Virus record (IMG/VR): IMGVR_UViG_3300046786_000293
Coordinates: 128,001-192,000 of that record
DNA length: 64,000 nucleotides
Strand: one strand, 5' to 3'
Source: a virus
Taxonomy: Duplodnaviria; Caudoviricetes
Positions 55,606 through 55,679 of the stretch are shown here, piece after piece (position 1 is the stretch's first letter; each line of letters starts with the position of its first letter). The notes under the pieces were generated by a model that made no database searches, was not told where the DNA came from, and saw only the letters and a list, made by a program, of their open reading frames with translations. Made by a program: the position numbers and the translations under genes.

Positions 55606-55679
55606 GCGCTTGGGCCAGATGGACTGGCAGGAGCTTCTAAAACTCCGGTGAGCGGGTTCGATTCCCGTCAAGCGCACCA
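55606..55679 (+). tRNA. atypical tRNA with CUA anticodon (amber suppressor candidate), Arg-like body, encoded CCA
   Basis: acceptor GCGCTTG/CAAGCGC+ACCA; D arm GCCA/TGGC; anticodon arm GGAGC-TTCTAAA-ACTCC; T arm GCGGG-TTCGATT-CCCGT. Confidence 0.85.

What the first reader, a model, noticed from the sequence alone, without database searches (positions are those of the whole stretch)
55606..55679. Phage-encoded tRNA with a CUA (amber-reading) anticodon
A full cloverleaf with encoded CCA folds here. The anticodon arm GGAGC-UU[CUA]AA-ACUCC puts CUA at 55637-55639, which would decode UAG. It has its own sigma70-type promoter, so it could be made early. Established: suppressor tRNAs accompany stop-codon recoding in some large phages. 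Inference: this tRNA lets the phage translate TAG as sense.
Basis: partly seen in the sequence, partly recalled or inferred. Interest (0 to 1): 0.9.

Follow-up and report, generated by a model that had tools for sequence, protein, structure and literature searches.

The report
Suppressor tRNA gating one linked gene
This giant phage carries a genuine UAG-reading tRNA, but it does not rewrite the phage's genetic code: its conserved client is one nearby gene whose reading frame is blocked by a UAG stop a few codons after the start, and this tRNA-plus-gene pairing recurs in hundreds of related phages.

Summary
ARAGORN and Rfam both call a tRNA with anticodon CUA at 55606-55679, and an independent metagenome reproduces it exactly. 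The 338.5-kb phage uses the standard code: coding density is 0.933 with TAG as stop or as sense, and it has no codon-specific release factor and none of the three synthetase families tested. Instead, a gene 2.1 kb downstream (gene X, 57810-58358) reads SD-ATG-GCA-CAA-TAG and then 178 codons. All 80 IMG/VR homologs fetched have an in-frame TAG one to nine codons after an SD-ATG. The stop there is never TAA or TGA. The 23 residues just after it are the most conserved in the protein. A tRNA-CUA lies within 6 kb on the same strand in 69 of 80 loci, and turned up in both further contigs examined. The 51 distinct tRNAs covary strongly and share unusual features. A cultured Rhizobium phage has the same pair, with the gene unannotated. 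Best reading: a dedicated amber-suppressor "gate" on gene X, whose function is unknown. A second client may be this lineage's iscU, which also contains a TAG. First readers of this scan noted the same arrangement in other genomes. No paper found describes it.

The parts
55569..55596 (+). Sigma-70-type promoter-like site TAGACT-16-TATAAT, ending 10 nt before the tRNA
   Evidence: This is a consensus match only, and such sites are not enriched over shuffles in this region.
55606..55679 (+). tRNA with anticodon CUA (55637-55639) and encoded CCA. It has G1:C72, C2:G71, G3:C70, A73, G8, a 5-nt D loop and a C31.A39 mismatch.
   Evidence: ARAGORN. Rfam 36.1 bits. It belongs to a family of 51 distinct covarying sequences. 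Reproduced with 0 differences in an independent run.
55692..55710 (.). Hairpin just downstream of the tRNA; terminator-like only on the minus strand
55761..56519 (+). Gene A: 252-aa protein with a C-terminal zinc ribbon, first gene after the tRNA. It has no in-frame TAG and is a frequent but not constant neighbour of the module (32 of 80 loci).
   Evidence: Distant homologs in XacN1, RAS14, CM1 and Xoo-sp13.
56579..57571 (+). PstS-like periplasmic phosphate-binding protein (PBP_like_2), lying between the tRNA and gene X in this phage only
   Evidence: E = 2.2e-35. Found near gene X in 3 of 80 loci.
57623..57642 (+). Terminator-like hairpin with a T run after the PstS-like gene, suggesting gene X has its own transcription start here
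57797..57802 (+). Shine-Dalgarno AAGGAG, 7 nt before the gene X start codon
57810..57818 (+). Gene X leader codons ATG GCA CAA (M-A-Q)
57819..57821 (+). In-frame TAG at codon 4 of gene X, the proposed amber gate, followed by A (ATT)
   Evidence: Reproduced with 0 differences in an independent run.
57822..58358 (+). Gene X body: 178 codons plus stop. It has an N-terminal beta-rich domain (FHFNKKHLED...PMWV...WSTKETPDN.HTKGS) and a C-terminal ACT/RRM-like ferredoxin-fold domain. Function unknown. The conventional ORF call starts only at the ATG at 57891, which has no SD.

Best explanation
The tRNA is a working amber (UAG) suppressor kept by a standard-code jumbo phage. Its main conserved job is to decode a single UAG placed a few codons after the start of a linked gene, gene X. 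Ribosomes load at a strong SD-ATG and make a 1-9-residue leader (M-A-Q here). They then meet UAG in a UAG-A context. Without charged tRNA-CUA, host RF1 releases a tiny peptide and no gene X protein is made. With it, translation continues into the most conserved part of the protein. Gene X output therefore depends on both its own mRNA and the phage tRNA, which makes a translational AND gate or feed-forward delay. SHOWN: the tRNA fold is under selection; the TAG is universally conserved and always TAG; the codons after it evolve as protein-coding sequence; tRNA and gene are physically linked; the genome is not recoded. INFERRED: the tRNA is transcribed, processed and charged by a host synthetase (which amino acid is unknown); it out-competes RF1 at this site; the purpose is timing or leak-proofing of gene X. 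In this lineage the same tRNA may also read the TAG inside a 3-codon insertion in phage iscU.
For: (1) tRNA: searches confirm it. Across 51 distinct homologs, 355 of 357 acceptor-stem cells and 255 of 255 T-stem cells are paired, with up to 6 pair types per position. CCA is encoded in 51 of 51 and A73 is present in 49 of 51. (2) Target: gene X reads SD-ATG-GCA-CAA-TAG-ATT. Homologs at 59% and 75% identity in two relatives have the TAG at the same place. All 80 IMG/VR loci fetched have it. The 5 further loci examined also have it; the 86 loci give 59 unique contexts, and the stop is always TAG, although TAG ends only 9 of 376 ORFs outside the tRNA cluster in this genome. The three database homologs whose DNA was checked translate only 'with_TAG=Q'. 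(3) The 23 codons after the TAG are the best-conserved part of the protein (mean column identity 0.93, against 0.79 and 0.74 further on), with synonymous variation at invariant residues. No in-frame ATG exists before residue 24. (4) Linkage: a tRNA-CUA lies within 6 kb on the same strand in 69 of 80 loci, upstream in 68, often at 100-400 nt. Both large contigs that seemed to lack one turned out to have one. Neighbouring genes vary. (5) The signature SD-ATG-up to 8 codons-TAG-long open frame occurs once per genome, in gene X, in both complete genomes. (6) In L138 gene X has no TAG, but a leader ORF M-T-TAG of 37 codons follows the adjacent tRNA-CUA, spans a terminator-like hairpin and overlaps the gene X ATG. 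(7) In the cultured Rhizobium phage RHph_I1_18 an unannotated N-domain gene reads M-S-E-F-M-TAG-AAC. AAC cannot act as a start codon. An annotated tRNA(cta) lies 11 nt after the gene's stop codon. (8) The genome is not recoded.
Against: There is no expression, charging or proteomic evidence: no RNA run holds the locus. The codon after the TAG is ATT in 52 of 59 contexts. ATT is a weak alternative start codon, so termination followed by re-initiation is not formally excluded for most members. XacN1 has related tRNA-CUA genes but no gene X, so the tRNA can exist without this client. One distant lineage (L139/L140) has gene X with neither TAG nor tRNA, so the gate is dispensable for the protein. 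The function of gene X is unknown, so the benefit of gating is conjecture. In this phage the tRNA is 2.1 kb from gene X with two genes and a terminator-like site between them, so co-transcription is not expected here.
Confidence: 0.75

Rival explanations
1. Mini-ORF with re-initiation. The SD-ATG-leader-TAG is a 2-10-codon upstream ORF. Ribosomes terminate at the TAG and re-initiate at the adjacent AUU to make gene X protein. The tRNA-CUA serves some other purpose, or merely modulates this.
For: ATT follows the TAG in 52 of 59 contexts, and ATC or ATA in 6 more. AUU is a known weak bacterial start codon (own knowledge, e.g. infC). Leader sequence and length vary freely.
Against: A re-initiation device would work with any stop, yet the stop is TAG in 59 of 59 contexts although TAG is by far the rarest stop in these genomes. 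It does not explain why a tRNA-CUA is nearly always adjacent. One homolog has GTT after the TAG, and the Rhizobium phage gene has AAC; neither is a usable start. In the TAG-less homolog the Ile is an ordinary second residue after Met.
Confidence: 0.1
2. The main role of the tRNA is general: reading through UAG stops of host genes or competing phages, or rescuing phage amber mutations. The UAG in gene X is a secondary sensor or passenger.
For: XacN1 keeps tandem copies of related tRNA-CUA genes (the pair is duplicated in its terminal repeats) without gene X, and its authors found no client gene. TAG is depleted as a stop in this phage, which would make the phage tolerant of global suppression. 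Stop-codon suppression as a weapon or regulator has been proposed for phages.
Against: The extreme conservation of the gene X TAG and its tight same-strand linkage to the tRNA across variable neighbourhoods point to a specific partnership. G002 keeps 39 of 445 TAG stops, so TAG depletion is not general in the clade. TAG-terminated genes here show no special back-up stops (median extension 8 codons, against 9 for TAA).
Confidence: 0.1
3. One reading: the tRNA underlies reassignment of TAG to a sense codon across the genome, or across a late-gene block, as in code-15 phages.
For: The CUA anticodon, the large phage genome and TAG depletion as a stop all fit the precursor state described for recoded phages.
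Against: Coding density is identical with and without TAG=sense in every bin outside the tRNA cluster. Structural genes in the window are intact under table 11. The strict comparative screen found no other conserved TAG inside a gene. No RF2 and none of the tested synthetase families is encoded. The tRNA lacks tRNA-Gln hallmarks.
Confidence: 0.02
4. The tRNA is a decaying or non-functional tRNA-like sequence, and the TAG marks gene X as a pseudogene or an N-terminally shortened gene starting at the ATG at 57891.
For: Low Rfam score (36 bits), G8, a short D loop and a mismatched 31:39 pair. Gene callers start gene X at the internal Met (P0005).
Against: The covariation and invariant features across 51 tRNAs are incompatible with decay. 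The unusual features are family traits, not private defects. The segment upstream of the internal Met is the most conserved part of gene X, and that Met has no SD.
Confidence: 0.02

Closest known systems
[quoted passage not shown]
   Same: A phage-encoded tRNA-CUA in a phage presumed to infect a standard-code host. TAG is rare as a stop. The idea that in-frame stops plus a phage suppressor tRNA regulate when a protein can be made.
   Different: There, tens to hundreds of genes, mostly structural and lysis genes, carry in-frame TAGs and coding density collapses under code 11. Here density is unchanged and one gene (plus iscU in this lineage) carries a TAG. That TAG sits at a fixed position right after the start, in a gene physically linked to the tRNA. 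The tRNA is not Gln-like and no RF2 is encoded.
The orphan suppressor tRNAs of Xanthomonas jumbo phage XacN1 (Yoshikawa et al. 2018, PMC5852040; read)
   Same: A distantly related jumbo phage (gene A 39% identical). Its two tRNA-CUA genes share the CUCUAAA loop, the C31.A39 mismatch and 83% identity from the anticodon arm to the T arm.
   Different: The XacN1 authors looked downstream of the 18 amber stops and found no client. XacN1 has no gene X, and its tRNAs sit inside the tRNA array in the terminal repeats. Here the tRNA is solitary and a client gene is identified.
Synthetic suppressor-tRNA coherent feed-forward 'leak dampener' (NAR 2021, PMC7969014; title and abstract seen)
   Same: It works like this. 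A gene carrying amber codons is expressed only when a suppressor tRNA is also made, which removes leaky expression and adds a threshold or delay.
   Different: That is an engineered circuit in E. coli, whereas this would be a natural, widely conserved counterpart. Co-regulation of tRNA and gene is inferred here, not shown.
prfB (RF2) autoregulation through an in-frame UGA early in its own gene (own knowledge, not tested here)
   Same: An early in-frame stop makes synthesis of a protein depend on the competition between termination and an alternative decoding event.
   Different: prfB uses a +1 frameshift, and its product is the release factor that reads the stop. Here the stop is read through in frame by a tRNA, and gene X has no detectable relation to release factors.
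tRNA-Pyl, the label ARAGORN gives any CUA tRNA
   Same: Anticodon CUA.
   Different: It has G18-G19, a TTCGATT T loop, a 5-nt variable loop and two bases between the acceptor and D stems. These are all unlike tRNA-Pyl (own knowledge of tRNA-Pyl features).

Membership tests
tRNA (Rfam RF00005) | Cloverleaf scoring above the family gathering threshold | tested here: met
   36.1 bits against 29. ARAGORN cloverleaf with a 7-bp acceptor stem, 5-bp T stem and TTCGATT loop.
tRNA (Rfam RF00005) | Canonical core: U8, a D loop of 7-11 nt, and a 5-bp Watson-Crick anticodon stem | tested here: not met
   G8, a 5-nt D loop and C31.A39. Across the family, position 8 is T in only 25 of 51 and 31:39 is a standard pair in only 10 of 51. 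It is a tRNA, but an atypical one.
tRNA (Rfam RF00005) | Stems maintained by compensatory change among homologs | tested here: met
   Acceptor stem 355 of 357 and T stem 255 of 255 cells paired, with 2-6 pair types at most positions.
Amber suppressor tRNA | CUA anticodon in a 7-nt loop with U33 and A37 | tested here: met
   The loop is UUCUAAA here. Across the family it is YUCUAAA in 49 of 51 and UUCUAAC in 2.
Amber suppressor tRNA | In-frame UAG codons in otherwise intact genes of the same genome | tested here: met
   Gene X codon 4. iscU codon 39, with a NifU_N match at 1.3e-52 spanning the TAG.
Amber suppressor tRNA | The tRNA is aminoacylated and inserts an amino acid at UAG in vivo | not testable with these tools
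   No RNA or proteome data are available. The amino acid could not be assigned: the best similarities are weak and mixed among Met, Phe and Thr tRNAs.
Code-15 / stop-codon-recoded phage | Coding density is low under code 11 and restored by reading TAG as sense | tested here: not met
   0.933 against 0.933 in this phage, and 0.929 against 0.927 in G002.
Code-15 / stop-codon-recoded phage | Many genes, typically structural and lysis genes, carry in-frame TAG | tested here: not met
   One gene is shared with G002 and one is lineage-specific. The strict screen found no others.
Code-15 / stop-codon-recoded phage | Accessory recoding factors (RF2, a cognate synthetase) | tested here: not met
   Only a 139-aa ArfB-like GGQ protein matches RF-1. 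PF00152, PF00749 and PF00579 are absent. Other synthetase families were not searched.
tRNA-Gln-derived suppressor (supE-like) | U1:A72 (a weak first pair), G73 and G10 | tested here: not met
   G1:C72 in 51 of 51 and A73 in 49 of 51. The identity rules are from own knowledge of E. coli GlnRS.
tRNA-Pyl | A 3-nt variable loop, no G18-G19 or T-psi-C motif, and one base between the acceptor and D stems | tested here: not met
   One search shows the opposite for each feature. pyl genes were not searched.
Bacterial initiator tRNA reading UAG as a start | A C1xA72 mismatch and three consecutive G:C pairs at the base of the anticodon stem | tested here: not met
   G1:C72 is paired in all members, and 31:39 is mostly mismatched. 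SD spacing fits the ATG, not the TAG.

The most novel reading that the evidence does not exclude
The tRNA-CUA/gene X pair is a self-contained natural switch that measures the cell's capacity to decode UAG (suppressor against RF1), and gene X itself acts on the translation apparatus. Its N-domain occurs elsewhere fused to a PTH2 peptidyl-tRNA hydrolase, and its C-domain has an ACT/RRM-like fold. Together these would close an autoregulatory loop comparable in logic to prfB. The family's odd tRNA traits (31:39 mismatch, non-U8) would then be adaptations for winning against RF1 or for escaping host tRNA-targeting defences.
Probability: 0.15. Interest if true: 0.9.

Novelty: new variant of a known kind. 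Interest (0 to 1): 0.8.

Why it matters
Phage suppressor tRNAs have been explained either as part of wholesale stop-codon recoding or left as orphans; the XacN1 authors, for example, could not find a client gene. This finding gives a concrete, testable third case: a standard-code phage clade, with over a thousand database homologs, that keeps an amber suppressor paired with one gene gated by a UAG right after its start codon. If confirmed, it would be a natural counterpart of the suppressor-tRNA feed-forward circuits that synthetic biologists built to remove leaky expression. It could also be a snapshot of the minimal first step toward code change. The tRNAs would be a source of naturally evolved, possibly efficient amber suppressors with unusual anticodon-stem architecture. 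There is a practical point for annotation too. Gene callers either truncate gene X at an internal Met, switch short contigs to code 15, or miss the gene entirely, as in the GenBank record of Rhizobium phage RHph_I1_18.

Tried and rejected
1. Genome-wide recoding: rejected by coding density.

2. A TAG at genome position 271019 whose read-through aligned with a G002 ORF having Lys at that position: rejected. The plus-strand ORF is an antisense shadow of two real minus-strand genes.

3. Codon-usage scoring of the flanks of every stop: uninformative. It cannot separate antisense frames, and TAG was not enriched over TAA.

4. The first unfiltered TAG-spanning BLAST screen: swamped by alternate-frame matches. 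It was replaced by filtered screens.

5. Amino-acid identity of the tRNA: similarity to 150 phage tRNAs gave only weak, mixed best hits. Acceptor and discriminator features exclude Gln-like, Ala-like and initiator types but do not assign one. The 31:39 literature tested only Watson-Crick variants, so it does not settle the matter.

6. Function of gene X: no Pfam or PHROG family. No profile match to the PDB. Foldseek against the PDB gave nothing significant. AFDB returned only uncharacterised small proteins for the N-domain. VIA-align and the Atlas gave a generic ACT/RRM-like fold for residues 94-168, with Z at most 6.0. The protein atlas feature search gave no hit.

7. Near or distant DNA matches of the tRNA or the locus in deposited phages: none. 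An exact 38-nt tRNA pattern in IMG/VR: none.

8. iscU homologs in G001, G002, G003, XacN1 and RAS14: none. Gene X in the two other contigs with a TAG-interrupted iscU: none, but these contigs are only 9-15% complete.

9. RNA evidence: no RNA run holds the locus.

10. Quadruplet (UAGA) decoding by an effectively 9-nt loop: considered and rejected, because the ATG, the TAG and the conserved downstream frame are all in the same triplet frame.

Full report
OBSERVATION. ARAGORN finds exactly one tRNA in the window, at 55606-55679 on the plus strand, with anticodon CTA. Rfam's tRNA model matches the same place at 36.1 bits, against a gathering score of 29. The drawn cloverleaf has a perfect 7-bp acceptor stem, an encoded CCA, a normal T arm (TTCGATT loop) and the loop UUCUAAA. 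A promoter-like TAGACT-16-TATAAT ends 10 nt upstream, but such matches are no more frequent here than in shuffled sequence. Contigs from an independent freshwater metagenome cover the tRNA and the downstream TAG discussed below with zero differences.

CONTEXT. The window is bases 128001-192000 of a 338,510-bp virus record estimated to be 97% complete. The genome has 39 other tRNAs covering all 20 amino acids. All of them lie in one minus-strand cluster at 111.5-126.6 kb. The CUA tRNA stands alone 57 kb away on the other strand. The nearest deposited phages are only distant relatives: Xanthomonas phages XacN1 and Xoo-sp13 and Stenotrophomonas phages CM1 and RAS14, at 35-39% identity for the neighbouring gene.

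IS THE GENOME RECODED? No. With a simple longest-ORF tiling, coding density is 0.933 under the standard code and 0.933 with TAG read as sense. The only bins that change are in the tRNA cluster. The window itself is tiled by back-to-back ORFs of up to 1870 aa under table 11, including tail-fibre genes. TAG ends 18 of 402 ORFs, and only 9 of 376 outside the tRNA cluster. The complete relative G002 (360,683 bp, with terminal repeats) behaves the same way: density is 0.929 against 0.927, and its CUA tRNA also stands apart from its tRNA cluster. The phage has no full-length release factor, only a 139-aa ArfB-like GGQ protein. It has no match to the Lys/Asp/Asn, Glu/Gln or Tyr/Trp synthetase families.

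THE CLIENT GENE. Two earlier first-reader notes pointed to a TAG early in a gene in this window and to a TAG inside iscU elsewhere in the genome, and I tested both. At 57797 there is AAGGAG, then 7 nt, then ATG GCA CAA TAG ATT GAA and so on, open for 178 further codons. The conventional ORF starts only at an internal ATG at 57891, which has no Shine-Dalgarno. Homologs in relatives G001 (75% identity) and G002 (59%) each contain exactly one in-frame TAG, at the same place: M-S-TAG-IEYAC and M-A-TAG-IEYAC. A search of IMG/VR with the post-TAG protein found 245 relatives. In all 80 that were fetched, an in-frame TAG sits one to nine codons after an SD-ATG (one to four in most), directly before the conserved I-E-Y/F-A-C, or one codon earlier in two cases. 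Across 59 unique sequence contexts, including 5 further loci examined, the stop is always TAG and never TAA or TGA. The 5.8-billion-protein database holds 1412 homologs. Full-length entries show Q at this position, and for the three whose DNA I checked this is only because their gene callers used code 15: the tool reports 'with_TAG=Q'. The 23 residues between the TAG and the first internal Met are the most conserved part of the protein, with mean column identity 0.93 against 0.79 and 0.74 further on. Invariant residues there are encoded by two to five synonymous codons. That segment is therefore translated, so ribosomes must pass through the TAG or start exactly at it. The signature 'strong SD, ATG, at most 8 codons, stop, at least 80 open codons, no SD at the next start' occurs once per genome for TAG, and it is this gene in both complete genomes.

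LINKAGE TO THE tRNA. In 69 of the 80 loci ARAGORN finds a tRNA-CUA within 6 kb of gene X. It is always on the same strand, upstream in 68 cases, and often only 100-400 nt away. Several of the remaining loci have truncated upstream flanks. In the two largest contigs that seemed to lack the tRNA, a relaxed pattern search found one: 8.5 kb away in one contig, and about 350 nt upstream in the other, where Rfam calls it and ARAGORN does not. Other neighbours come and go: gene A is present in 32 of 80 loci, AhpC in 30 and PstS in 3. The tRNA and gene X are therefore the constant pair.

THE tRNA FAMILY. The 51 distinct tRNA-CUA sequences collected keep 355 of 357 acceptor-stem and 255 of 255 T-stem cells paired, through many compensatory changes. 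They share G1:C72, C2:G71 (50 of 51), G3:C70 (45 of 51), A73 (49 of 51), an encoded CCA (51 of 51) and the loop YUCUAAA. Two traits are unusual for the whole family. Position 31:39 is a standard pair in only 10 of 51 (C.A 29, A.C 9, U.G 7, C.C 3, A-U 3), and position 8 is U in only 25 of 51. The oddities of the window's tRNA are therefore family characters under selection and not signs of decay. The two XacN1 tRNA-CUA genes share the loop and the C31.A39 mismatch. The inserted amino acid could not be assigned: similarity to 150 ordinary phage tRNAs is weak and mixed. The features exclude tRNA-Gln-like, tRNA-Ala-like, tRNA-Pyl-like and initiator-like identities. A73 plus U35 would suit LysRS or TyrRS (own knowledge). 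The base pair at 31:39 is known to tune LysRS and GlnRS acceptance of CUA tRNAs (PMC1483225), but mismatches were not tested there.

NATURAL VARIANTS THAT TEST THE MODEL.
(a) A distant homolog (40% identity, L139/L140) starts ATG-ATT-GAA with no leader and no TAG, and has no tRNA-CUA on its contig. The leader and the inserted residue are therefore dispensable for the protein, as expected of a gate and not of a functional residue.
(b) Another homolog (43%, L138) also lacks the TAG, yet a tRNA-CUA lies 150 nt upstream. Between them, a strong promoter (11 of 12 matches) is followed 7 nt later by ATG-ACC-TAG. This opens a 37-codon ORF that runs through a terminator-like hairpin and ends in an ATGA overlap with the gene X start. 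The amber gate appears to have moved into a leader ORF. This is a single case and remains an inference.
(c) In the cultured Rhizobium phage RHph_I1_18, a standalone N-domain gene reads M-S-E-F-M-TAG-N-E-S-C-R-E-V-I-F-H-F-N-K. It lies in an unannotated gap, and an annotated tRNA(cta) starts 11 nt after its stop codon. The codon after the TAG there is AAC, which cannot serve as a start.

MECHANISM. The best-supported reading is in-frame suppression of a deliberately placed early UAG by the linked tRNA. It makes gene X translation conditional on the phage tRNA. It costs only a 1-9-residue peptide when the gate is closed and leaves no truncated protein. The UAG-A context, present in 58 of 59 contexts, is the one reported to favour suppression in E. 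coli (own knowledge). The closest functional analogue is the engineered suppressor-tRNA feed-forward 'leak dampener' (PMC7969014). The main rival is termination followed by re-initiation at the following AUU. It is weakened by the exclusive use of TAG, by the tRNA linkage, and by the GTT and AAC variants. I put the gate model at about 0.75.

GENE X. It has no Pfam or PHROG family. AlphaFold2 with a 52-sequence alignment gives a confident two-domain model with mean pLDDT 92. The N-terminal beta-rich domain matches only uncharacterised small proteins, many of them viral. By sequence it also occurs alone, as ~85-aa proteins, or at the C-terminus of ~180-aa proteins, one of which has a PTH2 peptidyl-tRNA hydrolase domain. 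The C-terminal half has a generic ACT/RRM-type fold with Z at most 6.0, which is not diagnostic. Function remains unknown. A link to translation is a lead resting on a single fusion.

SECOND CANDIDATE CLIENT. The phage iscU (genome 65414-65809, minus strand, outside this window) is a full NifU_N domain (E = 1.3e-52) interrupted by one TAG within a 3-codon insertion: APAC-GGT-TAG-ATA-GGC-GDVMK. Two other phage contigs have the same insertion as GGT-TAG-TTA-GGT, while 58 of the other phage iscU genes that could be parsed are canonical. Either the tRNA reads it, inserting three residues next to the cluster-ligating Cys, or ribosomes hop from the Gly codon before the stop to the Gly codon after it. 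This cannot be decided here.

PRIOR KNOWLEDGE AND NOVELTY. The XacN1 paper reports two CUA suppressor tRNAs and states that no target could be found. Borges et al. describe recoded phages and standard-code relatives that have gained a suppressor tRNA. A 2026 jumbo-phage survey discusses suppressor tRNAs only alongside alternative codes. Four literature searches found no description of a conserved amber-gated gene linked to its tRNA. First readers of this scan independently noted the same arrangement in at least two other genomes, in three notes. Those notes are unverified, but they agree with the survey made here. I class this as a new variant of a known kind.

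Noticed in passing
Genome 65414-65809 (minus strand; outside the window, read as L009:615-1010:-); also L143 and L145: Phage iscU is interrupted by a 3-codon insertion containing a TAG: GGT TAG ATA GGC here and GGT TAG TTA GGT in two other phage contigs. 58 other phage iscU genes are canonical. It is either a second client of the tRNA-CUA or a 9-nt ribosomal hop between Gly codons across a stop.
   Followed up: partly
L138:2513-2664: In a lineage where gene X has no TAG, a near-leaderless 37-codon ORF (M-T-TAG...) sits between the tRNA-CUA and gene X. It spans a terminator-like hairpin and overlaps the gene X ATG (ATGA). This looks like an amber-dependent attenuator or coupling device.
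   Followed up: partly
L228:2477-2814 (Rhizobium phage RHph_I1_18, MN988519.1 about 10911-11248): A cultured phage has an unannotated 82-codon N-domain gene with a TAG at codon 6, directly followed by an annotated tRNA(cta). It is a ready experimental model and reveals an annotation gap in the GenBank record.
   Followed up: partly
L223:1619-1699 (+): A match to the Rfam 'freshwater-2' RNA motif (RF02980, 69.9 bits) lies next to the tRNA-CUA/gene X module of a related phage contig, on the opposite strand.
   Followed up: no
Genome 111813-112106 (minus strand; L137): A 139-aa protein with only the RF-1/GGQ domain (ArfB-like) sits inside the tRNA array. It is the only release-factor-like gene in the phage.
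   Followed up: partly
Window 58469-58813: An HNH endonuclease gene lies immediately downstream of gene X. HNH genes occur near gene X in 6 of 80 related loci, hinting at local mobility.
   Followed up: no
Window 58839-61337: A run of auxiliary metabolic genes follows gene X: an AhpC/TSA peroxiredoxin, a class II aldolase, a ferredoxin-like PHROG and a membrane protein. With the upstream PstS-like gene, this places the module in a host-takeover/AMG island and not among the structural genes.
   Followed up: no
Window 55619 (tRNA position 14): A strain about 94% identical in run X5 carries A to G in the D loop of the tRNA. The anticodon loop is unchanged.
   Followed up: no
P0173 (a 183-aa metagenomic protein): The gene X N-domain is fused to a PTH2 peptidyl-tRNA hydrolase domain (Pfam 1.6e-7, above the cut-off). 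This is the only functional hint for the domain.
   Followed up: partly
Genome 5387-6021 (minus strand): ARAGORN calls a permuted tmRNA in this phage, and another in G002 at 78913-79297.
   Followed up: no
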